A stretch of DNA of 56,029 nucleotides from Candidatus Hydrogenedens sp. (GCA_049968235.1 JBMFRC010000021.1:1-56029); one strand, 5' to 3'; positions 14,536 through 44,415 are shown, counted from the stretch's first letter. Made by a program: numbers and translations. Notes: a model not told the origin generated them from the sequence alone.

Positions 14536-17445
14536 GTGAGAAAAAAATTAATTCGAATAATAAAATATACCATCATCAGCATTGCAATCTTCATATTCAT
14601 CATCATTATATCTCTTTTCGTTATTTGGTCACTATTTCTAATAAAAGATTCTGTATCTTTCAACCCTACAAAAAATATTTCCATTACTCTATCCGGTTTT
14701 TCTGTTTTTCCGAAGATTTCTCTAAAAAATGTGGCTATTCAGGTGAACGATTATAACACAGATGTGGAGTTTCAGAATATCCAGTTACAATCCTTTATAA
14801 AAAACCGACATATTTATATCGAAGCATGTAATATCTATATTGACACAACATTTCAACCCTCCCATACAACGAAAGAAGAAAGAAAATCTAATCAAAAAAA
14901 GGATGTCTTCAATTTCCAATCTTTTTTTACCTATTTACCTCAAAAATTATTTGTCAAAAACATTTCTGTATTTATTAAAAATACCGAAAGAACATTTTTT
15001 ATATCAGGTATCCCGCTTACAATAGATAATGCACAAAACCTTATTTCCTTTTCTTCTACAGATGCTGTTATGGGAATTGTCTATAATGGACAGAAAAAAT
15101 CTATCACAGGGACAGTTGATATATATTACAAATTCCTGCAGGATTCTCAGGAAATTGGAAGCAATATCCAGTTTTCACCTTACATGCTTGCTCGTGCAAA
15201 AGTAACTTTTGATAACACAACACAAAAAATTAACATGGAGGATATATATTTATCTCTTGATGAAAATGTATCTCAATCTTTGTCTCCATTGCTTCGTTCC
15301 GTGTTTTCTTTCCCGGTAGACTGGCAAAAAATTCAAATAAATAATCTTCATGGCAGTTTTTATTATCAAAACGCTCGATGGATACCCAAAAATATCAATG
15401 GTTATCTCTCCTGCTCTTCTCTAAAAATAGGAGATAAAGAAAAACCATGGCTCCACTATACCTCAGAGATTCATATACATTCCCAATATATAGAAAACGA
15501 AAAAATAACAGAAGTGGTGATGAATACGGATAAAGACCCTTTATGGGAAATGAACTGGAAATATAATCATGGGAACCAAAATACCTTTCTGGATTTTTCC
15601 TGCAGAACTATACAAGGAAAAACCATTCAGAATATATCGCCTTTTTTATACCATACTTTCTTATTAAAACAAATAGAGCCCTTTTCCGCAGAATGTTCTT
15701 TGTCTCTACAAGGGCTTTTCCCTGCTCTGGGAGGGAATATTCGAGGGAAATTGTCCCTTTTTGATGTTAATAATATACAACTCAATAGCAGTCTAAAAAT
15801 TTCACCATCCAATAATGGCTCTAACTCAATGAAATGGTCTGGAGATGTAAACATTTTATCCAACCCCATTCATTTTTCTGCGGAATTTACACCTCCTACC
15901 TCTTTTATATCCCATATTCATACAGAAAATCTGCCAACAAAATTTATACAATCGTTGACACCTTCTTTAGTAAAAAATGTATTCGACAAATCGCTTGCAG
16001 ATATGGATATTACAATTAAGGGGACCGATTGGAAAAATATGGATTTGCAATTCAAAGGGGAATTAACATCGGGAAACGAGGACGAGGAATATCTACCTAT
16101 TGTGCCGTCACAATTTCATTTTCAGGGAACAATTCAAAATTTAGATACTCTTGTTGGTGCTTTTCATCTATCTTCAGAGAATTCTGCCGATTTCGAGTTA
16201 AATCCTTGCACATTACATCTTTTCCCTTTATCACTGGAAGGCGATGTAAAAACAAAAGTTTATCTTTCAACGATTGCTTTAGAATTCATTCCTTTTTATA
16301 TTCCGGGCAAAGCAAGTTTTGGGGGGAAACTCTATTGGAATGGCGATTGGGGAATTAAGATTCAGGGGTCAGGTTCAGGAGAAGGCTTAGGAATAAACGG
16401 ATATACGCTTCCGGAAGGAATTCCTTTATGTTTCAATACCAATCTAACCGGGGATTTTTTAGATTATACCTGTGCGTTTGAAAATTTAAAATTGGGATTT
16501 GCAAATTGTGAATTGGGAAATATTCAAAAATGCAAGATACTTCTGCCCAAGGATAACCAGAATTTTACCCTAAACATTCAAAATCTGGACATTAAAGGGA
16601 AATTTGAGGATTTACATGATTGGGGAATTTCACAAGATAGTCAGGGAACATTCTATCTCTCAGTAAAGAATTTTGAATATAAGGATAACACGATTAATAG
16701 TGGGGAGATAGAATGGGATGTAAATATTACAAATTTAAGCATACCTACATGGCAAATACAAATAAATCATTTGATAACGCAATCCCAGACTCAAAATTTA
16801 ACGAATACAGATTTGACAACGAACATTAAAATAGACGAATTTACTTTGCAGAAAATAAAAGTGGCTCAAATAGAAAATAGATTGAAATTTCAATTACTAC
16901 CGCTTAAAGTAGAGATAACAAACATGAATGGGAATTTATGGAATGGCACATTTAATACACGGGGAACTCTTCAAAAAATAGAAGATTCATTAGTGGGAAA
17001 TATTATCGGTGAATATAGAGGTATTGATTTATCTCAATTCACAACAGAACTTCGCCCACCCTGGGTAAATCTATCCGGACGAGGCAATGGAAATTTTGAT
17101 GCCAATATTAACTTCACCACAGGGCAACTTGTCGAGGGAAATTTTAGTCTCGCATGTCCAGAAGGATTAACTATTAACCGAGATGTCCTGCTCCAGTTAA
17201 TCCTATATTTACAAAATGTCAGTATCGTTCAGAAGCAACTTGAAAAATTATTGGGAGAAGAAGACCCAAAACCATTTACAAACGGAGAATTAACTATAGG
17301 ATTTAAAGATAGTCAGGCAACGGTTTCCTTACTCCTAACAACGCCAAACATTAATTTAGCACCTATCTTTTATATCAATGCAGATTGGAAAACACTTTGG
17401 TCCCTTTTAACAACCCAATCTGGTGTCCAGATAGAAATCAAATAA
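14536..17445 (+). CDS. large membrane-anchored hypothetical protein (AsmA-like architecture guess)
   Basis: 969-aa ORF with a GTG start. It has an N-terminal transmembrane anchor (IISIAIFIFIIIISLFVIWSLFLI), then an Asn/Ile/Thr-rich beta-prone sequence with no catalytic motif I recognise. It is divergently transcribed from the hybrid HK. Confidence 0.5.
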   Translation: MRKKLIRIIKYTIISIAIFIFIIIISLFVIWSLFLIKDSVSFNPTKNISITLSGFSVFPKISLKNVAIQVNDYNTDVEFQNIQLQSFIKNRHIYIEACNIYIDTTFQPSHTTKEERKSNQKKDVFNFQSFFTYLPQKLFVKNISVFIKNTERTFFISGIPLTIDNAQNLISFSSTDAVMGIVYNGQKKSITGTVDIYYKFLQDSQEIGSNIQFSPYMLARAKVTFDNTTQKINMEDIYLSLDENVSQSLSPLLRSVFSFPVDWQKIQINNLHGSFYYQNARWIPKNINGYLSCSSLKIGDKEKPWLHYTSEIHIHSQYIENEKITEVVMNTDKDPLWEMNWKYNHGNQNTFLDFSCRTIQGKTIQNISPFLYHTFLLKQIEPFSAECSLSLQGLFPALGGNIRGKLSLFDVNNIQLNSSLKISPSNNGSNSMKWSGDVNILSNPIHFSAEFTPPTSFISHIHTENLPTKFIQSLTPSLVKNVFDKSLADMDITIKGTDWKNMDLQFKGELTSGNEDEEYLPIVPSQFHFQGTIQNLDTLVGAFHLSSENSADFELNPCTLHLFPLSLEGDVKTKVYLSTIALEFIPFYIPGKASFGGKLYWNGDWGIKIQGSGSGEGLGINGYTLPEGIPLCFNTNLTGDFLDYTCAFENLKLGFANCELGNIQKCKILLPKDNQNFTLNIQNLDIKGKFEDLHDWGISQDSQGTFYLSVKNFEYKDNTINSGEIEWDVNITNLSIPTWQIQINHLITQSQTQNLTNTDLTTNIKIDEFTLQKIKVAQIENRLKFQLLPLKVEITNMNGNLWNGTFNTRGTLQKIEDSLVGNIIGEYRGIDLSQFTTELRPPWVNLSGRGNGNFDANINFTTGQLVEGNFSLACPEGLTINRDVLLQLILYLQNVSIVQKQLEKLLGEEDPKPFTNGELTIGFKDSQATVSLLLTTPNINLAPIFYINADWKTLWSLLTTQSGVQIEIK

Positions 17446-30338: not shown

Positions 30339-32225
30339 TTACTCAACAACGAAACCTTCCTTTTCGAGAAGTGCTTTAATTTCAGATAGTAGCATACCCC
30401 GCGAATAGACTGTATGGTTAGGAGAAATGGGGTGAAGTATCTCGGAAAGTTTCTTGCGGTGCATTAAATCGGCAATTATGACAGAATCCTGTGCCTCTAT
30501 TAAAATAACCGGGCGTACCTTTACTCGTTTAACCGTATGCATCCAATCTTCCATTGTGGAGATAACTATATCCGGAATTTGTTGCTTACGGGTATTCTGG
30601 AATAAGTATTGTATGAATTGGTTCGGGTCTGCACCACTCTGCACTCCCTTCAGGAAGGATTCCTTAGTAATTGAATATATTGAAACAGGTCCACCATTAC
30701 TTTTCTTTTGAGCAAAAAGTTCTATCCAGATTAATTGTAACGGGTCTACTTTAATTGTGGGAACAATAATTTCAAAGTTAGGCTGGACTATCCATTCCTG
30801 TTTTTTGTTGTATTTTTCTTTCAACTTCTTTGTAGGTTCTGAAGAGAATAAAAGATATTCCCCAATTTCACTGATACGGAAATAACGGTCTTTTTTGGCA
30901 TAACCAAATTCAATAATGCCAAACCAGAAGAAAGTATTATCTATAAAATGTATATAGTTCTTCTCATCACAATTGTCTTCGGAAGGTAAATATTCCCAGA
31001 AATTGTCTTTCGTTTGTTTTAATTCATAACGGGATAACTCACAATGTCGAGCGTAAACTCTTTTCCCAAACTCATTCAGAGAATACCATGTGTAAGGTTT
31101 TAATCCCTGTAACTCCGAAAGAGTTGCCGATAAAGATAAATTTGTTTCTTCCGCTTTGATGGCTGTTTCATAAATCTTTTTAAGTCTCTCCGGAAACGAC
31201 ATATTTACAAGTTCTTCAAGGTTTACAATACGGAGTGTGTTATCCACCTGTGCAAGCAAACCTGCTTTCTCAGCCAGCCGGACCAGTGTCTCGATAGGTG
31301 GATATGCATTTTCAGGCTCATCACGGGAAATGCGTTGTTCATCGGCACGAGTAATTTGTCCCGATGAGGTTATGCGTAAGGGAGATACTGCAATTTTGCC
31401 AAGAAGATGAGATATGCGTTCTGCCAATGAAACACCACAACTCTCAATACGGCTGATTTTAATATTTGTAGGTGTGATTTGTTGTTTCAATATCTCTTTC
31501 GATTCTTTTCTCTTTTCTCTATAATGCCGAATTTCGGATAGGATACTAATAAAACGGTTAAGTCTGTTTTGCCCATTGAAACGGAAAAGTTCAAAGAGAA
31601 CAAACTGATTGAGTAATTCATCTAATGCTTCTTCAATTTCTGTATTATTATATTTAGGAAACCTTTGCCGTATTTGCTGAACAGGGACAACCCCAGTCTT
31701 GCTTTGCCATAAGAAATCAAATATTTCCCTGGCTAATCCGGAAAAAGAATAACCCGCAACATATTCCAGAACAGATTCGGGGGTTTTATATAAATTTTCT
31801 ATGATTTCATTGGCTAATGACATCCACCCAATTACACGATTTATCTTTAATTTTTGTTCCAATTCCCTGCGTTCAGAATTGGAATAATTTTGTAACGATT
31901 TATAAATAGAATTAATGTCCCCCAGACTGTTCAAGTTATCCTGAACTCTACGAATAATAGGAAGAGCTTCCGGAACTACTTTAACGCGGTTTAAATCAAA
32001 AAAGAAAAGTTTTGGGTAAAGTTTGTAAATGTAATTAATCGTTTCTTCTGAGGTTTCAAGTTTTGCGGATAAATACCGGCTCGTTAGCCCTCCCCGGCTA
32101 TTCGCAGACAACTCAAGAGCCATATAAAACGATGTTAAGTCCATCCCTTCAAAGGCGGACAATAGACTATAACTATAACGCATTATCTCGCGGACCTTTT
32201 CAAAATACAGTTTACCTTGCACCAA
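30339..32225 (-). CDS. orphan hypothetical protein (628 aa) with a C-terminal segment reminiscent of the XPB damage-recognition / helicase-associated (PF13625-like) domain
   Basis: No catalytic motif was recognised. The C-terminal ~110 aa (...DWMHTVKRVKVRPVILIEAQDSVIIADLMHRKKLSEILHPISPNHTVYSRGMLLSEIKALLEKEGFVV) resemble the small alpha/beta domain found N-terminal to XPB-type helicases. It is convergent with lolD. Confidence 0.5.
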   Translation of the reverse strand: MVQGKLYFEKVREIMRYSYSLLSAFEGMDLTSFYMALELSANSRGGLTSRYLSAKLETSEETINYIYKLYPKLFFFDLNRVKVVPEALPIIRRVQDNLNSLGDINSIYKSLQNYSNSERRELEQKLKINRVIGWMSLANEIIENLYKTPESVLEYVAGYSFSGLAREIFDFLWQSKTGVVPVQQIRQRFPKYNNTEIEEALDELLNQFVLFELFRFNGQNRLNRFISILSEIRHYREKRKESKEILKQQITPTNIKISRIESCGVSLAERISHLLGKIAVSPLRITSSGQITRADEQRISRDEPENAYPPIETLVRLAEKAGLLAQVDNTLRIVNLEELVNMSFPERLKKIYETAIKAEETNLSLSATLSELQGLKPYTWYSLNEFGKRVYARHCELSRYELKQTKDNFWEYLPSEDNCDEKNYIHFIDNTFFWFGIIEFGYAKKDRYFRISEIGEYLLFSSEPTKKLKEKYNKKQEWIVQPNFEIIVPTIKVDPLQLIWIELFAQKKSNGGPVSIYSITKESFLKGVQSGADPNQFIQYLFQNTRKQQIPDIVISTMEDWMHTVKRVKVRPVILIEAQDSVIIADLMHRKKLSEILHPISPNHTVYSRGMLLSEIKALLEKEGFVVE

Positions 32226-32325: not shown

Positions 32326-32379
32326 CTATGCAAAAATTGCAGAGTAATTGGTGAAAAGTGCAGGTTTTGCATAGAAATT
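32326..32379 (+). promoter_or_regulatory. pair of inverted enhancer-like dyads (ATGCAAAAATTGCAG and its near-reverse-complement GTGCAGGTTTTGCAT; TGCA-N5-TGCA cores), candidate UAS for the adjacent NtrC-type activator
   Basis: 32329-32341 tgcaaaaattgca and 32360-32372 tgcaggttttgca lie about 31 bp apart (three helical turns). They sit 45-90 bp upstream of the sigma-54 -24/-12 element. Confidence 0.4.
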
Positions 32380-32402: not shown

Positions 32403-32420
32403 TTGGCATAAGTATTGCTT
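32403..32420 (+). promoter_or_regulatory. sigma-54 (RpoN) -24/-12 promoter: TGGCAT-N5-TTGCT
   Basis: GG at 32405-32406 and GC at 32417-32418 have exactly 10 nt between them, matching the consensus TGGCAC-N5-TTGCW. It lies ~45 nt upstream of ATG 32467 and an AGGAGA RBS. An NtrC-family activator is encoded 1.5 kb downstream. Confidence 0.6.
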
Positions 32421-32466
32421 ATTTATTATAGGAAAACAAAAAACCTTAACAATAAGGAGAAAGAAG

Positions 32467-32820
32467 ATGAAACAGAGATTCGTATTCACACTAAGTTTAC
32501 TGGCAGTCGTCCTGATGCTGAGTGGGATTACTATGGCACAAGGAAATGGACAGGGTGCTCAGCGAGGTTATTGCAAAACCAATTGCTATGTGGACAAAAA
32601 TGGCGATGGTGTCTGCGATAACTTCAAAGACGCCAACAATGATGGTAGATGTGATAATTGCACATGCCCGGCATCCTGCGGGAAAGGTAAAGGAAACTGC
32701 TGTAGCAATTTTGTAGATTCCAATAATGATGGCAGATGCGATAATTGCCAAAATTCTAATGCCTACTATGGTAATGGTAGGGGAAAATGCAATAGAAGAT
32801 GTTGCCCTGTAAACAAATAA
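32467..32820 (+). CDS. small secreted Cys-rich protein with three tandem Ca-loop-like repeats (D-x-N-x-D-G-x-C-D-N)
   Basis: MKQRFVFTLSLLAVVLMLSGITMAQG is a Sec signal peptide. The mature ~91 aa carry 14 Cys and the repeats VDKNGDGVCDNF, DANNDGRCDNC and DSNNDGRCDNC. The RBS is AGGAGAAAGAAG. The real start is 32467, not the track start 32254. Confidence 0.65.
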   Translation: MKQRFVFTLSLLAVVLMLSGITMAQGNGQGAQRGYCKTNCYVDKNGDGVCDNFKDANNDGRCDNCTCPASCGKGKGNCCSNFVDSNNDGRCDNCQNSNAYYGNGRGKCNRRCCPVNK

Positions 32821-32839: not shown

Positions 32840-32878
32840 GGCTTGCTCTTTAATAAAAAGGGCAAGCCTTTATTTTAT
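32840..32878 (+). terminator. rho-independent terminator after the Cys-rich protein gene
   Basis: GGCTTGC (32840-32846), a 15-nt loop, then GCAAGCC (32862-32868) followed by TTTATTTTAT. Confidence 0.6.
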
Positions 32879-32908: not shown

Positions 32909-34246
32909 ATGTTCTGGCAAAATAGAAAATTACTTTTTGTTTTTACAGCAATTATTGTCGGCGTAATTATTTTTATTCTTCTGGTTTCTTTTTTACGAGA
33001 GCGACAGCATAACCAACAGGTCTTTGTAGAACGAGGACAAACACTATTGCAAATTCTTTCCTCCTCTTTATCACTTCAAACACGCATGGGCTGTTATCGT
33101 GCCCAGCGAGTTGTGGAAATAATAAATAGTGTTTCGTTATCCCCGGGTATTTTGTATGTAGCGTTATTAAATCATGAAGGGAAAATAATTGCCAGTGCAG
33201 GTGAAACATCCGTCTCCCCAATAAATAAAATTGCAAAAGGAAAACATATTTATTGGGATAACGAATGTGTTTGTTTATCACAAACGATTTCTATGGACGA
33301 ACTTCAAAAAGGTCGTCAACACCGATATGGAATGGCAGTATGTCCTGACCCAACATGTGCAAATGAAAGTATGATTCCCTGGAGTGAATGGGGAACGGGT
33401 CCTTTTCTTCTGATGGTTTGTCTGAATACTCAAGAATTGAAAGGAATGAACAAATCAACCTCTATTCGGTTTGGGATATTTGCCCTGTTGAGTATGGGCA
33501 TAAGTATATTGGGCTTTGTTGTTCTGGAATTGTATCAACGAAAAGAATTGTATGCTTATGACCTAAAATTAACCCGGGAAAAAGCAAGATATAACGAACA
33601 TTTAGCACAAATAGGGGCAGGACTGGCACATGAGACAAAAAACCCATTAAGCATTGTTCGTGGGCTTGCTCAGGCAATACAGGAGGAAGTGGAGCCAATT
33701 TCAGATGCATATAAATATGCCAGTAAAATAATTGATGAGACAGACCGTTCTGTCCGGCAGATAAACAATTTTTTGGAACTGACACATCCTCATACTCCCG
33801 AAAAGAAACCTATCTCTTTACAATCTATCATTGAACAGTTGTTGAATTTGACAGATACAGATATAAAAAATAAAGGCATTTCCATTGAAGTAAAAGGAAC
33901 AGATATAACCATAGAAGCAGACCCCGAATATCTTCGTCGTGCTTTGTTAAATCTCCTTCTGAATGCAATACAGGCATGTTCCGCAGGAGATAAAATTACC
34001 CTTCAAATAGAACCCCTCGGCGATTGGATAGCCCTTCACATTATAGATACAGGAGTCGGTATTTCAGCAGAAGATTTACCTCATGTAGTAAAGCCGTATT
34101 ATTCCAAACGGAAAGGAGGCACAGGGCTTGGTTTGAGTATTGTAAATGAAATAGTTCTATTGCATGGATGGGAATTTTCTATCCAATCTCAAAAGGGAGA
34201 AGGAACAAAGGTAACTATTTCCCATATCCGCCGAATTAACAGTTGA
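32909..34246 (+). CDS. sensor histidine kinase with Cys-containing periplasmic sensing domain
   Basis: TM1 LLFVFTAIIVGVIIFILLVSF. The periplasmic ~150 aa include ...DNECVCLSQ...MAVCPDPTCANES.... TM2 IRFGIFALLSMGISILGFVVL. HisKA LAHETKNPLSIVRG. HATPase ...GVGISAEDLPHVVKPYYS...GGTGLGLSIVNEIV. Confidence 0.8.
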   Translation: MFWQNRKLLFVFTAIIVGVIIFILLVSFLRERQHNQQVFVERGQTLLQILSSSLSLQTRMGCYRAQRVVEIINSVSLSPGILYVALLNHEGKIIASAGETSVSPINKIAKGKHIYWDNECVCLSQTISMDELQKGRQHRYGMAVCPDPTCANESMIPWSEWGTGPFLLMVCLNTQELKGMNKSTSIRFGIFALLSMGISILGFVVLELYQRKELYAYDLKLTREKARYNEHLAQIGAGLAHETKNPLSIVRGLAQAIQEEVEPISDAYKYASKIIDETDRSVRQINNFLELTHPHTPEKKPISLQSIIEQLLNLTDTDIKNKGISIEVKGTDITIEADPEYLRRALLNLLLNAIQACSAGDKITLQIEPLGDWIALHIIDTGVGISAEDLPHVVKPYYSKRKGGTGLGLSIVNEIVLLHGWEFSIQSQKGEGTKVTISHIRRINS

Positions 34247-34303: not shown

Positions 34304-35614
34304 ATGAAAAAAGAAAACGCAGAAAAAGTAATTCTACTTGTTGATGATGATAATGCTCAGAGAGAATTACTCTCTCGCTATCTAACTCGGGCAGGCTTTT
34401 CTGTCCTTGCTGTTGCTAATTACAAAGATGCAAAGCCCCTTTTCGGACATGCACATCTTATTCTTCTGGATGTTCGTCTGCCGGATGCCAATGGGGTGGA
34501 GAAAATACCGGAGATAAAGGAACAGTTTCCGGGAATTCCTGTGATTTTGCTCACCGCTTTTATTGATGTCCGCGATGCCGTTCAGGCAATTAGACAGGGT
34601 GCTGTGGATTACCTTGAAAAGCCTGTAGATTTAGATGAGTTAATTGAAGTAATCCAAGAACAGCTGGGAACACTTCCGACAGATAGGACAGAAGATAGCG
34701 AATTGCCGGAAGACTTTATCTGTTATAGCACATCCATGCAAAAAGTGGTGCAGGATTGCCTTCGTGTATCTCCCACCAAAGCCACAGTGCTTATTACCGG
34801 AGAAAGTGGTGCAGGGAAAGAATGGATAGCAAGACTTATTCACCAATTTAGTGAGCGTAAAAATAAACCTCTTGTTGTTATAGATTGCACACATCTGCCA
34901 GAAACACTTGCAGAAAGTATTTTGTTTGGTCATGAACCCGGCGCTTTCACAGGGGCTATAACACAACAAAAAGGGCAACTTGAAGAGGCTAATGGAGGAA
35001 CTCTTTTTTTGGATGAAGTAGGAGAATTGCCCCTATCAGTGCAACCAAAACTATTGCGTGTTCTGGAAGGGTCACCTTTCCGAAGGATTGGTGGGACAAA
35101 AGATATACATGTTGACCTGCGTATTATTTCTGCGACCAATCGGAATTTAGAAACAGAGGTGCAGGAAGGAAAATTTCGTCAGGATTTGTTCTATCGCCTT
35201 CATGTAATCACCATTCATGTCCCTCCTTTACGAGAACGAGTAGATGATATTCTACCTCTGGCAGAATTTTTTTTGAAGCCGTATAACAAAACTTTATCAC
35301 CATCCGTACAGAGATTACTCCTCCGCTATCCGTGGTTCGGAAATGTTCGCGAATTAAGAAATGCTATGGAACGTTCTGCTATTCTTGCTAATGGTCCCAT
35401 GATTATGCCCGAAGACCTTCCAGAGATTATTCAAAATTATTCACCTTCCGATGAATCCCATCAGCCCCCTTCTTCATTACGATTGGATGAGTTAGAACGG
35501 GAGGCGATTCTTAACGCATTAAAAGAAGCAGGGGGAAATCGAACACGAACTGCGGAAATTTTAGGAATTAGTAGACGTACACTTATATATAAATTGCGGG
35601 CATACGGGTTATAA
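34304..35614 (+). CDS. sigma-54-dependent response regulator (NtrC family bacterial enhancer-binding protein)
   Basis: Receiver domain (ILLVDDDNAQRELL...LILLDVRLPDANG). AAA+ sigma-54 activation domain with Walker A GESGAGKE, the GAFTGA loop (HEPGAFTGA) and ESELFGHE-like ESILFGHE. C-terminal Fis-type HTH (GGNRTRTAEILGISRRTLIYKLRAYGL). Confidence 0.85.
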   Translation: MKKENAEKVILLVDDDNAQRELLSRYLTRAGFSVLAVANYKDAKPLFGHAHLILLDVRLPDANGVEKIPEIKEQFPGIPVILLTAFIDVRDAVQAIRQGAVDYLEKPVDLDELIEVIQEQLGTLPTDRTEDSELPEDFICYSTSMQKVVQDCLRVSPTKATVLITGESGAGKEWIARLIHQFSERKNKPLVVIDCTHLPETLAESILFGHEPGAFTGAITQQKGQLEEANGGTLFLDEVGELPLSVQPKLLRVLEGSPFRRIGGTKDIHVDLRIISATNRNLETEVQEGKFRQDLFYRLHVITIHVPPLRERVDDILPLAEFFLKPYNKTLSPSVQRLLLRYPWFGNVRELRNAMERSAILANGPMIMPEDLPEIIQNYSPSDESHQPPSSLRLDELEREAILNALKEAGGNRTRTAEILGISRRTLIYKLRAYGL

Positions 35615-35660: not shown

Positions 35661-36908
35661 ATGAATATCCATGAACACCAACCATACCCTCCTTTAAGAA
35701 ATATCGAGGCATTCCCCATTCATCATCAAGGACAAACACTTATCTGCCTTCATGACCCACTGGGATATGTAAACACCGAAATTACACTCTCACCCGCTGC
35801 ATTCTTTATTGCCGCATGTCTGGATGGAAATCATACCTCGCGGGATATTCAACTGGAATTTGCTCGTGAATTTCAAGGGGCTTTAATCCCTCGTGAACAG
35901 ATAGAAAAAATAGTTGAGTTCCTGGATGAACATGGCTTCCTCCTAAATGAACGCTTCGAGGAAATTAAAAGCAAAACAGAAAAGGATTTTTTACAGCAAG
36001 TTGTTCGCCTTCCTTATCATGCAGGGCAATCTTATTCTTCTGCAAAGCATGAATTGGGTGCCTTTTTATCCACAATTTTTACACGAACAGGGGGACCGGG
36101 ACCTTTGCCCGATAAACAACAATCTTCTGAGGATTGTATGGTCGGTTTAATTGTTCCACATATTGATTTTCAACGGGGTGCTCTGGGTTATGCCCATGCC
36201 TACTATCGACTTTATCAATGTAAAAAACCGGATACAGTTATTATCTTTGGGGTAAGTCATCAAGGGGGAGAAACACCTTATATCTTAACACGCAAACATT
36301 ACAGCACACCTTTAGGAACTATTAAAACACATCAGGATTGTGTTGAGTATTTAGCCCAGAATTCACAATTCGACCCGTTCAAATCTGAAATTATGCATCG
36401 TATGGAACATTCCATTGAATTTCAGGTGCTAATGTTGAATTATCTCTTTGGCACAGATATTCAGATAGTCCCTGTGTTATGTACCTCTATTTCAGAAGAT
36501 AGAGAACTCTCCCCAGAGGATATTCCGGAAATCCAACAATTTCTGCAAACATGTATCCAATATATCGAACATAGTGGAGAGCGAGTATTGGTCTTGTCTG
36601 CATCAGATTGGGCACATGTCGGAAAACGATTCGGTGACTCGTTTGATATTACCGAAGATATTCAAATTCAGATAAAAAACCGCGATGACGAAGACATAAA
36701 AGTAGCTTTAAATATAAACCCGGAGCATTTTTTCCATTCTGTTATGAAAGACAAAAACAGCCGTCGAGTATGTGGATTATACTCTATTTATTCTACATTG
36801 AAAGTCATAAAAGGAACCGCACACCGTGCTGAATTTCTGCATTATGGACAAGCCCCTGACCCTATTGGCGGGATTGTCTCCTTTTCAAGTATTGCCTACT
36901 TTAAGTAA
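35661..36908 (+). CDS. fusion protein with an N-terminal PqqD-like (RiPP-recognition-element-like) domain and a C-terminal MEMO1 / AmmeMemoRadiSam-protein-B-like domain
   Basis: MEMO signatures: MVGLIVPHIDFQRGALGYAHAY (compare GxIxPHAGYxYSG), MEHSIEFQVLMLNYLF (compare EHSxExQLPFL) and LSASDWAHVGKRFGD (compare SsDfSHyG). The N-terminal residues ~30-95, EITLSPAAFFIAACLDGNHTSRDIQLEFAREFQGALIPREQIEKIVEFLDEHGFLL, align by eye with PqqD ([29 protein letters not shown]...DDVVEFLQ...WI). Confidence 0.6.
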   Translation: MNIHEHQPYPPLRNIEAFPIHHQGQTLICLHDPLGYVNTEITLSPAAFFIAACLDGNHTSRDIQLEFAREFQGALIPREQIEKIVEFLDEHGFLLNERFEEIKSKTEKDFLQQVVRLPYHAGQSYSSAKHELGAFLSTIFTRTGGPGPLPDKQQSSEDCMVGLIVPHIDFQRGALGYAHAYYRLYQCKKPDTVIIFGVSHQGGETPYILTRKHYSTPLGTIKTHQDCVEYLAQNSQFDPFKSEIMHRMEHSIEFQVLMLNYLFGTDIQIVPVLCTSISEDRELSPEDIPEIQQFLQTCIQYIEHSGERVLVLSASDWAHVGKRFGDSFDITEDIQIQIKNRDDEDIKVALNINPEHFFHSVMKDKNSRRVCGLYSIYSTLKVIKGTAHRAEFLHYGQAPDPIGGIVSFSSIAYFK

Positions 36909-36917
36909 GGTGTAAAG

Positions 36918-37916
36918 ATGAATAGGAATACTATTTTGCTTATATTATTCTTCGGAATTATTTGTAATTTGCCCTGCCAATCGTATCATACCTTGATCGA
37001 CTTACATACCGCACCGGGATGGGCTTCGGAAAATGGTGGGACAACAGGCGGAGGAAAATCAAAACCTACTACAATTAAAACGATAGAAGAACTTCAAACT
37101 CTGGTCTCTACAGAAGAACCACAAACAATACTTGTAAGTGGGACCATGGGAGCAGGACTTTCTACAAAAATAAAAGTAAACTCAAACAAGACTATCATGG
37201 GTTTAGACAAGGCACTTATAAAAGGCAGTTTTACCATTAAAGATGCAAAAAACATTATCATCCGGAATTTGACGATTGAGGGTCCCGGTGCCATTGATGT
37301 GAATGCTCCATACTGTATTACAATAGATAATTCAACAAATATATGGTTAGACCATCTTGATATATACGATGGTTAGGATGGAAATGTTGATATTGTTAAT
37401 GGTTCTAACTACATTACCATATCATGGTGCAAGTTCCATTATACTTCTGCTTCGAAAAATCATAAATTGTCAACACTCATTGGTAATTCAGATGAAAAAA
37501 TATCCGACAGAGGAAAATTGAAAACTACAATGGTATATAACTGATGGGCAGAAGGCGTTGATTCGCGTACGCCAAGAGTTCGCTTTGGACAGGTGCATGT
37601 CATAAACAATCTCTACACATGCACAGAAAATGATTACTGCATTCTGGCAGGCATGGAAGCAAACTTGAGAATCGAATATAATTTATTTGTAAATGTAAGA
37701 GAACCTATCAATTTATCTCAAAAAACATTTACTGCTGTTAGCGACTCAAACAATAAATTCCTATCAGTCAAAGGGAACACTGAGGGAAAAGGAGACGCCT
37801 TTAAGCCCCCCTATAATATAACCATTATCCCATTAAATAAATTAGAAATGATTATAAAAAAGTATGCAGGAGCCAATCTTCCTCATATTAAAAACGAAAT
37901 ATTCTGTGAACAATAG
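36918..37916 (+). pseudogene. pectate lyase (polysaccharide lyase family 1) with two in-frame nonsense codons (TAG 37374-37376, TGA 37542-37544) and no frameshift
   Basis: Signal peptide, then GWASENGGTTGGGKS...ILVSGTM...IKVNSNKTIMGL...IIRNLTIEG...IWLDHLDIYDG*DGNVDIVNGSNYITISWCKFHYTSASKNHKLSTLIGNSDEKISDRGKLKTTMVYN*WAEGVDSRTPRVRFGQVHVINNLYT.... This closely parallels Bacillus or Erwinia PL1 motifs (GYASxNGGTTGG, vWIDHxxfs...DGxxDIkxgSdyVTvSwn.F..HdKxmLiGhSD, RMPRVRFGqvHvyNNYY). The track reports only the flanking pieces 36918-37376 and 37593-37916. Confidence 0.7.
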
Positions 37917-42708: not shown

Positions 42709-44415
42709 TTAAGCATTATCACCGTTACGGTCTCTACGGATAATAAATATTGTCCCTGCAATGAAATATGCTAATGTGGGATAAATCAAGATGCGATGAA
42801 ACGATTGAAGATTTTGGATGAACCCATTTGTGCCTTTTAAGAACACCGAAATTGCCAGTACTAAACAAACCACCAATGATAAGCCGGCAATAATACCTGA
42901 CAGAACTAATATAGAGTCTATTTGAGAAGAAGATACTTTGTTCTTTTGTGTTTCTGACACAACTTTGGCTTCCCGATTTTCCGCTGTAGGAATAATTTCC
43001 TTTGCATCTGCAGGCACATCCCGGGCCCCCATAAGTATAGACAGCACGATATATAATATAGATGTCATAACCCACACAGGGACAAATAAGAAGAATAAGT
43101 GTAAAGTGCCCGTTTTTTCTAAAGTTATGGCAACAGCAATAGAGATTAACCAACTTAATAAAGCAGGCCAATTCATTAGCAATCGTTTCTTCTCTGCCCA
43201 GTAACGGGTAAGTCCTATTTTAGGGAATATCCAGTATTCTGTAAATGCTACGGCACCTAAGGGCATAAGGAGTAAACCATAATAACCTACAAAATCGAGT
43301 AATTTTGTAAATACAAAAGGAGAACAGGCTATAACCGTTGTTCCTGCTCCCGCTAATAAGGTTACCAACCAACGAGGCCAGCCGGGAGTAACAGCTTGTA
43401 ACGCTAATCCTGCGCGATACAAGGTGGGGTTTGATGTTGTCCAGCCTGCTAATACCACGGCAATTAATCCAGAGATGCCTAATGCCTCTGTTGCCACAGC
43501 ACCGGAATCCAATTGAGTAATACTTTTTTGCAGTAATAAAGCAGACATGGCTCCCATTATACCTGCACATATCCACGCTAAATAATGACCTAAGAACATA
43601 CCAAAAGCAGAAAACAAACCATAAGCGGATGACCTGGCATAACGGAAAATTGCCATATCTGATAACCCACCATGCATTGCCAGATTACAAATCCATGCAA
43701 AGGCGGAAACATGCCAGAAAGAAATCGGTTCTTTCCCATCCGGACGAACTCCGGTCCATATCTTTTGTGTGGCAATCTGCCAGAAATCGTTCCAGTTGCG
43801 AATATCAATGCCCGCTGCTGGTAATAAGGCAATTGCTCCTGCGATAAACATCAAGAACATCCATGGTGAACATACAACAGAAAATTGGGATAGTCGTTTA
43901 AATCCCAATATTGCGAGAGTAACCACAACAGCACCTACCACAAGAACAACCAGAACAAATCGGAAATCTGTTGGTATCCACTCTGTCTGGGCTGGTATTC
44001 CCAAAGGGACACGAACCGCCGAAGCAGAAACGGTTATCATGCAACCTGCCAATATACAGAATAAGAAAGCATTGAGGACATTGTATATTGTTGTTACCAC
44101 AGGTCCTGCAACTTTTCTTAAAAACCAGTATAATGTTAGTCGTGTTCGAACAGCAATTGGGGCACATATCAAAGTCCATGTCAATACTGCCATCAGATTT
44201 CCGAGCAATAAACCGACAAAAATATCATAAGCATTAACACCCCAACTAACAAACAAAGCACCGATAACGAATTCCGTCCCTGCAACATGCTCACCTGCAA
44301 ATAGCCCTGCAAAATATCTACCTGGCTGAAGTTTATCTTCGGTTACAGGTTCTCGCTCAAATTCGTATAACAAATCCAGTGCTTCTGTTGCTTTTATAAC
44401 TTTCTCTTCACTCAA
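42709..44415 (-). CDS. NCS1-family-like nucleobase/cation symporter (cytosine/purine/allantoin permease-type) with extra C-terminal TM helices
   Basis: 568 aa with 12 or more TM helices. The N-terminal region ...GRYFAGLFAGEHVAGTEFVIGALFVSWGVNAYDIFVGLLLGNLMAVLTW... parallels the CodB/NCS1 TM1-3 pattern (…LIGNLLLG…). The assignment is a motif-level judgement only. Confidence 0.5.
   Translation of the reverse strand: MSEEKVIKATEALDLLYEFEREPVTEDKLQPGRYFAGLFAGEHVAGTEFVIGALFVSWGVNAYDIFVGLLLGNLMAVLTWTLICAPIAVRTRLTLYWFLRKVAGPVVTTIYNVLNAFLFCILAGCMITVSASAVRVPLGIPAQTEWIPTDFRFVLVVLVVGAVVVTLAILGFKRLSQFSVVCSPWMFLMFIAGAIALLPAAGIDIRNWNDFWQIATQKIWTGVRPDGKEPISFWHVSAFAWICNLAMHGGLSDMAIFRYARSSAYGLFSAFGMFLGHYLAWICAGIMGAMSALLLQKSITQLDSGAVATEALGISGLIAVVLAGWTTSNPTLYRAGLALQAVTPGWPRWLVTLLAGAGTTVIACSPFVFTKLLDFVGYYGLLLMPLGAVAFTEYWIFPKIGLTRYWAEKKRLLMNWPALLSWLISIAVAITLEKTGTLHLFFLFVPVWVMTSILYIVLSILMGARDVPADAKEIIPTAENREAKVVSETQKNKVSSSQIDSILVLSGIIAGLSLVVCLVLAISVFLKGTNGFIQNLQSFHRILIYPTLAYFIAGTIFIIRRDRNGDNA

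What the first reader, a model, noticed from the sequence alone, without database searches (positions are those of the whole stretch)
32467..32820. Small secreted protein with 14 Cys and three D-x-N-x-D-G-x-C-D-N(C/F) repeats
After a Sec signal peptide, the mature ~91 residues contain tandem motifs VDKNGDGVCDNF, DANNDGRCDNC and DSNNDGRCDNC. These combine an EF-hand / thrombospondin-type-3 / dockerin-like calcium loop (DxNxDGxxD) with paired cysteines. The protein is flanked by Gly-rich ends and finishes in ...KCNRRCCPVNK. No family I can name has this exact arrangement. The neighbouring sensor kinase has a periplasmic domain that also carries clustered Cys (CVC...CPDPTC). This suggests a secreted metal, redox or peptide signal sensed in the periplasm.
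Basis: seen in the sequence. Interest (0 to 1): 0.6.

Follow-up and report, generated by a model that had tools for sequence, protein, structure and literature searches.

The report
Sigma-54-controlled secreted Cys-rich repeat protein
This is a real gene for a small exported, cysteine- and aspartate-rich repeat protein that is switched on by the neighbouring sensor-kinase and sigma-54 regulator pair. It belongs to a large, unstudied protein family that in many bacteria sits directly beside regulators that sense conditions outside the cell membrane, so it probably binds metal ions there; that function is not proven.

Summary
ORF 32467-32820 (+) encodes 117 aa: a Sec-type signal peptide, then 93 residues with 14 Cys and three D-x-N-x-D-G-x-C-D-N loops. 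It is identical to a hypothetical protein of a Candidatus Hydrogenedens MAG.

It is not an orphan. It is the most Cys-rich branch of a large uncharacterised family of exported proteins. The family has about 1600 clusters at 50% identity and the consensus F-V-D-[AE]-[DN]-G-D-G-[VI]-C-D-N. No paper and no solved structure was found. Relatives carry only faint hits to Pfam PF27309 (MJ0753_N).

New here:
- The gene has its own conserved sigma-54 promoter (32404-32419).
- Two conserved TGCA-N5-TGCA palindromes lie upstream of that promoter.
- A conserved terminator (32840-32868) follows the gene.
- Next come a ZraS-like kinase and an NtrC-family sigma-54 activator.

Across 81 loci the family gene sits next to sigma-54 two-component systems, OmpR-type systems or ECF sigma/anti-sigma pairs. 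It is often the first gene behind the matching promoter.

The best reading is a regulated periplasmic metal-binding accessory protein. It would be a non-homologous functional analogue of ZraP or CnrX. Regulation is well supported. Metal binding is inferred. AlphaFold gives no confident fold.

The parts
32326..32341 (+). Upstream enhancer-like site 1 (CTATGCAAAAATTGCA; contains the palindrome TGCA-N5-TGCA), about 97 bp upstream of the inferred transcription start.
   Evidence: It is one arm of inverted repeat I1. It is conserved in orthologous loci L001 and L004. Its role as a binding site for the downstream sigma-54 activator is inferred.
32359..32374 (+). Upstream enhancer-like site 2 (TGCAGGTTTTGCATAG; TGCA-N5-TGCA), 33 bp centre-to-centre from site 1.
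   Evidence: It is the second arm of inverted repeat I1 and is conserved in L001 and L004.
32404..32419 (+). Sigma-54 (-24/-12) promoter, TGGCAT-N5-TTGCT.
   Evidence: It is the only match to TGGCAY-N5-TTGCW in the 56 kb window, where 0.08 are expected. It is invariant in the orthologues. A match of at least 10 of 11 consensus positions lies upstream of the family gene in 9 of 15 loci linked to a sigma-54 regulator, against a background of 0.09 per kb.
32454..32459 (+). Ribosome-binding site AAGGAG, 7 nt before the ATG.
   Evidence: Read directly from the sequence. It is conserved in the alignment.
32467..32820 (+). Coding sequence of the 117-aa exported Cys-rich repeat protein. The signal peptide is 32467-32538 and the mature protein 32539-32817.
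32587..32661 (+). Tandem repeats 1 and 2 (YVDKNGDGVCDNF / KDANNDGRCDNC), 12 residues apart.
   Evidence: They match the family consensus F-V-D-x-[DN]-G-D-G-[VI]-C-D-N. A 12-residue spacing is the commonest in the family. The motif columns are invariant.
32710..32748 (+). Repeat 3 (FVDSNNDGRCDNC).
32840..32878 (+). Intrinsic terminator: a 12-bp stem, a 5-nt loop and a T-run, lying between the small gene and the kinase gene.
   Evidence: Found by the terminator scan. The fold has z = -4.95. The stem is kept in L001, L010 and L004 through compensatory changes.
32909..34246 (+). Membrane sensor histidine kinase (445 aa) with a ZraS-like overall layout. Its periplasmic domain carries Cys at C62, an ECVCL stretch and a CPDPTC insert.
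   Evidence: Pfam finds HisKA and HATPase_c. The best NCBIfam model is ZraS over the full length, at 203 bits and below the 479-bit cut-off. The sensor domain alone hits ZraS at E = 3.7e-7. The best PDB match is ZraS 9jfj at 2.4e-34. The Cys insert is restricted to the close clade.
34304..35614 (+). NtrC-family response regulator and sigma-54 activator (receiver, AAA+ and Fis-type HTH domains; 436 aa).
   Evidence: Pfam hits are Sigma54_activat at 2e-67, Response_reg and HTH_8. The AtoC, NtrC and ZraR models all score below their equivalog cut-offs.

Best explanation
The gene encodes a Sec-exported periplasmic protein of about 93 residues. The protein is largely unstructured on its own and is rich in Asp, Asn, Gly and Cys.

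Transcription starts at the gene's own sigma-54 promoter. The NtrC-family activator encoded two genes downstream switches that promoter on from two upstream TGCA-N5-TGCA sites, after phosphorylation by the ZraS-like membrane kinase. A terminator after the small gene lets it be made in large excess over the kinase and the regulator.

In the periplasm, each D-x-N-x-D-G-x-C-D loop offers carboxylate and amide oxygens plus one thiolate. The 11 extra Cys (CxxC, CxC and CC pairs) add ligands of the kind seen in metallothioneins. The protein would therefore bind and buffer divalent metal ions. It probably also reports back to the kinase's Cys-bearing sensor domain. This makes it a non-homologous functional analogue of ZraP in ZraPSR, and of CnrX in ECF systems.

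- Shown: the gene, export signal, repeats, promoter, terminator, gene order and family-wide linkage to regulators.
- Inferred: activation by this particular regulator, metal binding, the identity of the metal, and feedback on the kinase.
For: **Regulation**
- The window has a single sigma-54 consensus match, 48 bp before the ATG. It is conserved together with two palindromes in the orthologues.
- The same promoter type lies upstream of distant family members in other Hydrogenedentota that also have a kinase and sigma-54 regulator downstream (9 of 15 loci; background 0.09 per kb).
- The terminator is conserved and covaries.
- The order small gene, kinase, regulator is kept in four loci whose upstream neighbours differ.

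**Family-wide linkage to regulators**
- Among 150 immediate neighbour ORFs, 20 are ECF sigma factors, 13 are kinases and 9 are response regulators.
- Among second neighbours, 13 are RsgI-like anti-sigma factors.
- phmmer places a regulator on the same strand within 3.5 kb in about 50 of 81 loci.
- In Firmicutes, a conserved ECF-type promoter TGAATGGATT-N13/14-TCGTATTA precedes the family gene in 14 of 17 loci.

**Hints of metal chemistry**
- The kinase is ZraS-like, including part of its sensor domain.
- Cation-efflux (CDF) genes lie directly downstream in L005 and L015. ArsR, DUF305 and DUF2202 genes also occur among the neighbours.
- His/Cys/Gly-rich tails occur in many family members and in the co-encoded anti-sigma factors.
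- This clade has the highest Cys content of 224 family proteins, 15-17.5% against a median of 3.8%. The Cys positions and number vary (14, 15, 14, 14), including an odd count.
- The CPDPxC insert in the kinase sensor occurs only in this same clade.
- AlphaFold finds no regular structure in the mature part. That is the behaviour expected of a protein that folds around metal ions.

**Precedents in the literature**
- ZraP is a sigma-54/ZraR-dependent periplasmic zinc-binding protein of ZraPSR (PMC4987338, PMC12314577).
- CnrX is a periplasmic metal sensor working with an ECF sigma/anti-sigma pair (PMC6851896).
Against: - There is no direct evidence of metal binding, and no homology to ZraP, CpxP or CnrX (no Pfam or NCBIfam hit).
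- The kinase and regulator score well below the ZraS and ZraR equivalog cut-offs. The regulator is as close to AtoC and NtrC as to ZraR. The stimulus is therefore unknown.
- Metal-related neighbours (CDF, ArsR, DUF305) are a small minority of loci.
- The low AlphaFold confidence could simply reflect a poor alignment of a repeat protein.
- Being first in an autoregulated operon fits a stress effector or a signal as well as an accessory sensor.
- The match between the Cys-rich protein and the Cys insert in the kinase rests on a single clade.
Confidence: 0.45

Rival explanations
1. It is a calcium-stabilised, disulfide-linked extracellular structural 'wire', similar in principle to thrombospondin type-3 repeats. 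It would be produced as cargo of an envelope-stress response, for example as a surface or matrix component, and would have no sensing or buffering role.
For: - The loops fit D-x-[DN]-x-D-G-x-x-D, and the repeats lie 12 residues apart.
- The model shows no secondary structure. Repeats built around ions and disulfides look like this.
- Some relatives carry T9SS sorting tails or peptidoglycan-binding domains, which points to a surface location.
- This protein has an even number of Cys (14).
Against: - Pfam gave no hit at all, so no TSP_3, dockerin or EF-hand hit.
- The closest orthologue has 15 Cys, and many family members have odd Cys counts.
- The motif Cys is replaced by Asn in 8% of repeats.
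- As I read the organism names, the family is concentrated in anaerobic lineages, where extracytoplasmic disulfides are less expected.
Confidence: 0.2
2. It is an auto-induced secreted protein signal. The exported protein would itself be the ligand of the adjacent kinase, giving a positive feedback loop as in peptide quorum sensing.
For: - The gene sits immediately upstream of the kinase and is driven by a promoter that the kinase's partner regulator would activate.
- Cys-rich elaborations appear together in the protein and in the kinase sensor domain.
Against: - Repeat number varies from 1 to 14, tails are of low complexity, and the same family pairs with three unrelated receptor architectures. 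This argues against specific ligand-receptor recognition.
- The protein has an ordinary Sec signal peptide and no processing or export genes next to it.
Confidence: 0.1
3. It is a sacrificial periplasmic thiol or redox buffer, for example against oxidants, electrophiles or polysulfide. In that case the Asp-rich loops are incidental.
For: The protein is 15% Cys with CxxC, CxC and CC pairs. It is under the control of a system of the envelope-stress type.
Against: The feature conserved across the whole family is the Asp/Asn/Gly loop with a single Cys, not Cys richness. No thioredoxin, DsbA or peroxidase genes are among the enriched neighbours.
Confidence: 0.1
4. It is a Cys-rich antimicrobial peptide, or a RiPP precursor that the neighbouring Memo-like protein modifies.
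For: The product is small, secreted and Cys-rich. The Memo-like gene downstream has an N-terminal extension with a weak PqqD/RRE-like hit (E = 0.0034) and stays in the same gene order in the close clade.
Against: - The protein has a Sec signal peptide, not a leader peptide.
- No radical-SAM, AMMECR1, cyclase, protease or immunity gene lies nearby.
- Memo is linked only in the four closely related loci and not elsewhere in the family.
Confidence: 0.05

Closest known systems
ZraP of the ZraPSR envelope-stress system (Enterobacteria)
   Same: Both are small periplasmic proteins expressed from a sigma-54 promoter and controlled by an adjacent kinase and NtrC-family activator. The kinase here is ZraS-like. 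ZraP binds zinc and represses ZraSR (PMC4987338, PMC12314577). From my own recollection of the ZraP sequence, not checked here, both proteins also have Gly-rich ends containing Cys.
   Different: There is no sequence homology: no LTXXQ or Metal_resist hit. ZraP is a helical oligomeric chaperone, whereas this protein is predicted to be coil-like loops. The gene lies on the same strand upstream of the kinase, separated by a terminator, rather than divergently. The stimulus and the metal are unknown.
CnrX of the CnrYXH system (Cupriavidus metallidurans)
   Same: CnrX is a small extracytoplasmic metal sensor encoded with an ECF sigma/anti-sigma pair and sharing their autoregulated promoter (PMC6851896). 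Family members in Firmicutes and Bacteroidota sit directly upstream of an ECF sigma and an anti-sigma factor, behind an ECF-type promoter.
   Different: There is no homology. CnrX is a membrane-anchored four-helix bundle. The protein in this window pairs with a two-component system, not with an ECF sigma.
D-x-D-x-D-G calcium loops (thrombospondin type-3 repeats, integrin FG-GAP, dockerin, EF-hand)
   Same: The loop pattern D1-x-[DN]3-x-D5-G6-x-x-D9 is the same. The loops occur in tandem in extracytoplasmic proteins. As in TSP3, Cys lies close to the loops.
   Different: Pfam gave no hit at E <= 1, so none to TSP_3, Dockerin_1 or EF-hand models. Relatives give only sub-threshold EF-hand_5 hits, E = 0.06-0.8. 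The unit is 12 residues with a conserved Cys at position 8 and no acidic residue at position 12.
Pfam PF27309 (MJ0753_N), a domain of unknown function
   Same: Family relatives at E = 1e-11 to 1e-27 carry precomputed PF27309 hits, labelled MJ0753_N.
   Different: Where a strength is given, the hits are marked 'faint'. No hit is on record for this protein itself or its three orthologues. The model is not in the local Pfam copy, and no literature was found.
Metallothioneins and exported Cys-rich copper storage proteins (Csp1)
   Same: The protein is 15% Cys with CxC, CxxC and CC pairs, and no stable fold is predicted without metal. From my own knowledge, Csp1 shows that exported Cys-rich metal stores exist.
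   Different: There is no homology. The protein contains Tyr and Phe and the Asp-rich loops. Csp1 is a Tat-exported helical bundle.

Membership tests
Unnamed FVDxNGDGxCDN-repeat family of exported proteins | Significant match to a profile built from family members. | tested here: met
   The profile of A3 scores P0001 at E = 3.1e-21. A single-sequence search reaches Kapaibacteria members at 1.5e-11. The profile includes the query itself, so the single-sequence result is the independent one.
Unnamed FVDxNGDGxCDN-repeat family of exported proteins | N-terminal signal peptide followed by two or more [FY]-V-D-x-[DN]-x-D-G-x-C-D-N units and a Gly-rich tail. | tested here: met
   The protein has three units at residues 41-53, 54-65 and 82-94, a signal peptide at 1-24 and a GNGRGK tail.
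Pfam PF27309 (MJ0753_N) | Match to the Pfam HMM at or above its gathering score. | tested here: inconclusive
   The model is absent from the local Pfam copy. The precomputed annotation shows no hit for P0001, P0002, P0003 or P0052. More distant relatives carry hits, marked 'faint' where a strength is given.
Thrombospondin type-3 repeat (PF02412) | HMM match and the D-x-D-x-D-G-x-x-D-x-x-D-x-C unit. | tested here: not met
   Pfam gave no hit at E <= 1. The unit is shorter and the Cys sits at loop position 8.
Dockerin type I (PF00404) and EF-hand | HMM match; paired 12-residue loops with an acidic residue at position 12 and flanking helices. | tested here: not met
   Pfam gave no hit at E <= 1 for the query. 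Relatives give only EF-hand_5 at E = 0.06-0.78, below the cut-off. No helices are predicted in the mature part.
ZraP / CpxP / Spy / CnrX periplasmic accessory proteins | Sequence membership (LTXXQ or Metal_resist HMMs). | tested here: not met
   No Pfam or NCBIfam hit at E <= 1.
ZraP / CpxP / Spy / CnrX periplasmic accessory proteins | Exported small protein encoded next to, and transcribed under the control of, an envelope-sensing regulator. For ZraP this means a sigma-54 promoter plus a ZraS-like kinase and an NtrC-family activator. | tested here: met
   The sigma-54 promoter with upstream palindromes is conserved. The ZraS-like kinase and sigma-54 activator lie directly downstream. Activation by this regulator was not tested experimentally.
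ZraP / CpxP / Spy / CnrX periplasmic accessory proteins | Binds metal and modulates the cognate sensor. | not testable with these tools
   This needs biochemistry and genetics.
Metallothionein | High Cys content with CxC, CxxC and CC motifs; few aromatic residues; forms metal-thiolate clusters. | tested here: inconclusive
   The Cys content (15%) and the motifs are present. The protein also has 4 Tyr and 2 Phe, and no metallothionein HMM hit. Cluster formation cannot be tested here.
RiPP precursor | A leader peptide instead of a Sec signal, and an adjacent maturation enzyme (radical SAM, cyclase, protease or transporter). | tested here: not met
   The N-terminus is of the Sec type. No such enzymes are in the neighbourhood. 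There is only a weak PqqD-like hit in the Memo-like protein.

The most novel reading that the evidence does not exclude
The FVDxNGDGxCDN-repeat proteins would be a previously unrecognised, widespread class of extracytoplasmic metal-ion-binding accessory proteins. On their own they are unstructured strings of loops that fold around ions. They would serve as the co-sensor and buffer of at least three unrelated signalling architectures: sigma-54 two-component systems, OmpR-type two-component systems and ECF sigma/RsgI-like anti-sigma pairs. They occur mostly in anaerobes, including abundant gut Lachnospiraceae, Oscillospiraceae and Bacteroidales. The Hydrogenedens version would be a hyper-Cys variant that has co-evolved with a Cys insert in its kinase's sensor domain.
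Probability: 0.3. Interest if true: 0.7.

Novelty: new variant of a known kind. Interest (0 to 1): 0.55.

Why it matters
Small periplasmic accessory proteins such as ZraP, CpxP, Spy and CnrX are how well-studied bacteria tune envelope and metal stress sensing. Almost all are known from Proteobacteria and share one helical fold.

This locus points to an unrelated protein family that occupies the same genomic and regulatory niche. The family has about 1600 clusters at 50% identity, no paper and no structure. It spans Hydrogenedentota, Ignavibacteria/Kapaibacteria, Chloroflexota, Bacteroidota, gut Firmicutes and even ANME archaea.

If the family binds metals, it would give a handle on metal and envelope sensing in anaerobes and gut commensals. 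It would also add a new ion-binding repeat with mixed oxygen and thiolate ligands. Several cultured hosts carry family members and offer experimental entry points: Clostridium methylpentosum, Pseudoflavonifractor phocaeensis and Haliovirga abyssi.

Tried and rejected
- **Family scans of the small protein.** Pfam and NCBIfam at E <= 1 gave nothing. TSP3, dockerin, EF-hand, ZraP/CpxP and metallothionein membership are therefore rejected.
- **Solved structures.** A PDB sequence search and a family-profile search gave only chance-level hits, E >= 0.14.
- **Structure prediction.** Two AlphaFold runs, with 45 and 127 aligned sequences, gave pLDDT 54.5 and 59.9 with no secondary structure in the mature part. 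A Foldseek search of the PDB with the better model found nothing. No conclusion about the fold can be drawn.
- **Literature.** Searches for MJ0753, PF27309 and the motif strings returned no papers.
- **RNA.** An Rfam scan of the window found no RNA family.
- **RiPP or bacteriocin idea.** No radical-SAM, AMMECR1 or other maturation genes are nearby. Memo linkage is limited to the four close loci.
- **Sigma-54 promoter in Ignavibacteria/Kapaibacteria loci.** None was found directly upstream of the family gene in L013, L014, L050, L055, L060 or L079. In L013, L014 and L050 the gene lies between the kinase and regulator genes.
- **Extra neighbour scans.** Unannotated neighbours in L060, L079, L005 and L051 gave no Pfam hit.

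Full report
**1. The observation**

The ORF at 32467-32820 (+) exists as described. An AAGGAG ribosome-binding site lies 7 nt upstream of the ATG. The product is 117 aa. It starts with a typical Sec signal peptide (MKQRFVFTLSLLAVVLMLSGITMA|QG), which AlphaFold models as a helix over residues 3-22.

The 93-residue mature part holds 14 Cys (15%), 18% Asn and 15% Gly. It contains three loops: YVDKNGDGVCDNF (41-53), KDANNDGRCDNC (54-65) and FVDSNNDGRCDNC (82-94). It ends in KCNRRCCPVNK.

No other ORF in the window carries two or more such motifs. The protein is identical to hypothetical protein ACP5UA_11845 of a Candidatus Hydrogenedens MAG.

**2. It belongs to a large unstudied family**

A single-sequence search found three orthologues of 76, 63 and 53% identity. 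It also found more distant relatives at E = 1e-11 in Kapaibacteria. A profile of 11 mature sequences then found:
- at least 2234 proteins at E <= 1e-3 in the 90%-identity collection;
- 1600 clusters at 50% identity, 211 of them at E <= 1e-10.

Members are mostly 100-250 aa. They have a signal peptide or lipobox, 2-14 repeats and Gly/Arg-rich tails that are often also His- or Cys-rich.

From 850 repeats, the consensus is F(81%) V(73%) D(100%) A/E D/N G D(89%) G(100%) V/I C(89%; N 8%) D(100%) N(64%). The commonest spacing between repeats is 12 residues.

Hosts include Hydrogenedentota, Ignavibacteria/Kapaibacteria, Bacteroidales, Lachnospiraceae/Oscillospiraceae, Chloroflexota, Desulfobacterota and Methanosarcinales/ANME. 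As I read the names, these are mostly anaerobic lineages.

Nothing is known about the family:
- Local Pfam and NCBIfam give no hit.
- There is no PDB relative by sequence or by profile.
- No paper was found for the motif strings, MJ0753 or PF27309.
- Some relatives carry precomputed hits to Pfam PF27309 (MJ0753_N), marked 'faint' where a strength is given. This protein carries none.

The 14 Cys are a clade-specific elaboration. The four Hydrogenedens-type proteins are the four most Cys-rich of 224 family proteins, at 15-17.5% against a median of 3.8%. Their Cys number and positions vary: 14, 15, 14 and 14.

**3. The gene is a self-contained sigma-54 transcription unit**

- TGGCATAAGTATTGCT at 32404-32419 is the only match to the -24/-12 consensus in the 56 kb window, where 0.08 are expected.
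- Upstream lie two 16-nt arms, 32326-32341 and 32359-32374. Each contains TGCA-N5-TGCA, and their centres are 33 bp apart.
- The promoter and both sites are conserved in the orthologous loci, while the rest of the intergenic region is not.
- Downstream, a 12-bp hairpin and T-run (32840-32878) separates the gene from the kinase gene. The hairpin is kept in three orthologous loci through compensatory stem changes, with z-scores from -4.2 to -7.1.
- Next come a 445-aa membrane histidine kinase and a 436-aa receiver/AAA+/Fis-HTH sigma-54 activator.

The kinase's best NCBIfam model is ZraS over its full length, at 203 bits and below the 479-bit equivalog cut-off. Its sensor domain alone still hits ZraS at E = 3.7e-7. 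Its cytoplasmic part is closest to the ZraS structure 9jfj. The regulator is a generic NtrC-family protein: the AtoC, NtrC and ZraR models all score below their cut-offs.

Only 30 bp lie between the terminator and the kinase start codon. From this I infer that the kinase and regulator are expressed mainly by read-through. The small protein would then be made in excess.

**4. The linkage holds beyond this clade**

The order small gene, kinase, activator, Memo-like gene, pectate lyase is kept in four loci whose upstream neighbours differ.

In 15 loci of several phyla, a family gene lies on the same strand as a kinase and a bona fide sigma-54 activator. In 9 of these a sigma-54 consensus matching at least 10 of 11 positions lies 45-112 bp upstream of the family gene. 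These include distant Hydrogenedentota members with 6-14 repeats. The background rate is 0.09 per kb.

A Pfam census of the nearest neighbour ORFs of 76 loci gave ECF sigma factors (20 of 150 ORFs), histidine kinases (13) and response regulators (9: 4 sigma-54 type, 5 OmpR type). It also gave a few Cation_efflux, DUF2202, DUF305, NUBPL-type ParA and Nitro_FeMo-Co genes. Second neighbours add RsgI-like (13) and zf-HC2 (3) anti-sigma factors and ArsR regulators (3).

In Firmicutes the order is family gene, ECF sigma 12-50 bp downstream, then anti-sigma. A conserved ECF-type promoter, TGAATGGATT-N13/14-TCGTATTA, lies upstream of the family gene in 14 of 17 loci.

So in at least two independent regulatory architectures the family gene is the first gene behind the promoter type that its neighbouring regulator uses.

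**5. Mechanism**

The part shown by the data is this: an exported repeat protein whose expression is wired to an adjacent regulator that senses conditions outside the cytoplasm.

I infer that it binds divalent metal ions in the periplasm. It would act like ZraP in ZraPSR: a sigma-54/ZraR-dependent periplasmic zinc-binding protein that also represses its system (PMC4987338, PMC12314577). It would also resemble CnrX, which works with an ECF sigma/anti-sigma pair (PMC6851896).

Supporting hints:
- The loop pattern D-x-[DN]-x-D-G-x-x-D is the calcium-loop pattern, here with a conserved thiol at position 8.
- The clade has added CxxC, CxC and CC pairs.
- Cys counts are variable and sometimes odd, which argues against a fixed disulfide framework.
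- His/Cys/Gly-rich tails occur in family members and in the co-encoded anti-sigma factors.
- CDF efflux genes lie directly downstream in the Kapaibacteria loci L005 and L015.
- The kinase resembles ZraS.
- The CPDPxC insert, with other Cys, in the kinase sensor domain occurs only in the clade with the hyper-Cys protein.
- AlphaFold predicts no regular structure with either 45 or 127 aligned sequences (pLDDT 54.5 and 59.9). This fits ion-dependent folding but is weak evidence. Foldseek found nothing.

None of this shows metal binding, identifies the metal or demonstrates feedback on the kinase.

**6. Rivals**

- A Ca-stabilised, disulfide-linked surface 'wire' of the TSP3 type.
- A thiol or redox buffer.
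- A RiPP or antimicrobial peptide.

The RiPP reading has the least support. The N-terminus is a Sec signal. No radical-SAM or AMMECR1 genes are nearby. Memo linkage is limited to four closely related loci. The signal reading is weakened by the variable repeat number and by the family pairing with three unrelated receptor types.

**7. Comparison, novelty and verdict**

In context and regulation the locus works like ZraP-ZraSR. The protein is not a member of the ZraP/CpxP/CnrX, TSP3, dockerin, EF-hand or metallothionein families, because it hits none of their HMMs. Its own family is real and large but uncharacterised.

I rate it a new variant of a known kind: a non-homologous protein family occupying the accessory-protein niche of envelope and metal sensing systems. 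Interest is moderate (0.55). The regulatory wiring and the breadth of the family are solid and unpublished as far as the searched library shows. The biochemical function remains inferred.

Noticed in passing
window 36918-37916 (+): The pectate-lyase gene downstream of the Memo-like gene has two in-frame stop codons: TAG at 37374 and TGA at 37542. The 78%-identical orthologue in L001 has CAG (Gln) and TGG (Trp) at those positions. Both changes are transitions. The gene is probably a pseudogene or carries assembly errors in this MAG.
   Followed up: partly
window 35661-36908 (+): The Memo-like protein passes the cut-off of TIGR04336 (AmmeMemoRadiSam system protein B). It has an N-terminal extension of about 115 aa with a weak PqqD/ScmD-like hit (E = 0.0034). 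No AMMECR1 or radical-SAM partner lies nearby. It follows the two-component system in all four close loci.
   Followed up: partly
window 32909-33550 (kinase residues 1-213): The CPDPxC insert and the other Cys of the kinase's periplasmic domain are present only in the four close orthologues. That is the same clade in which the small protein is hyper-Cys. The more distant Hydrogenedentota kinases lack the insert.
   Followed up: partly
L004 4383-5732 and L010 4396-5742 (- strand): In two orthologous loci, a divergent operon shares the intergenic region that holds the sigma-54 promoter and palindromes. The operon encodes an outer-membrane efflux protein, a membrane-fusion protein and two ABC-2 permeases. 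It may be co-regulated. In the window this position is taken by a Helicase_C_3/Tfb2-like gene (30339-32225, - strand).
   Followed up: no
Firmicutes loci L007, L021, L023, L025, L033, L049, L058, L059, L069, L071, L073, L074, L076 and L080, about 60-100 bp upstream of the family gene: A conserved ECF-type promoter motif, TGAATGGATT-N13/14-TCGTATTA, precedes the operon of family gene, ECF sigma and RsgI-like anti-sigma (14 of 17 loci).
   Followed up: yes
L058 6767-7636, L073 6885-7676, L023 1361-2197, L069 6701-7546: The RsgI-like anti-sigma factors encoded after the family gene also end in extracytoplasmic Gly/Asn-rich tails. Some of these tails are His-rich (for example GGHHGNGGHHGGR and GHGHGHGYGHDD). 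They resemble the tails of the family proteins.
   Followed up: no
L005 6001-7568 and L015 5878-7397: The Kapaibacteria family members carry a T9SS C-terminal sorting domain. A cation-diffusion-facilitator (CDF) gene follows directly, and a divergent Mrp/NBP35-type ATPase gene precedes them.
   Followed up: partly
window 14536-17445 (+) and 42709-44415 (-): Two large ORFs, of 969 and 568 aa, have no Pfam hit at E <= 1e-5.
   Followed up: no
L013 10229-10690 (-), L032, L037, L050 and L085: Several genomes carry two family paralogues within a few kb of each other. Some lie head to tail (for example L037 1969-2901 and 2965-3450; L085 5128-5754 and 5815-6429).
   Followed up: no
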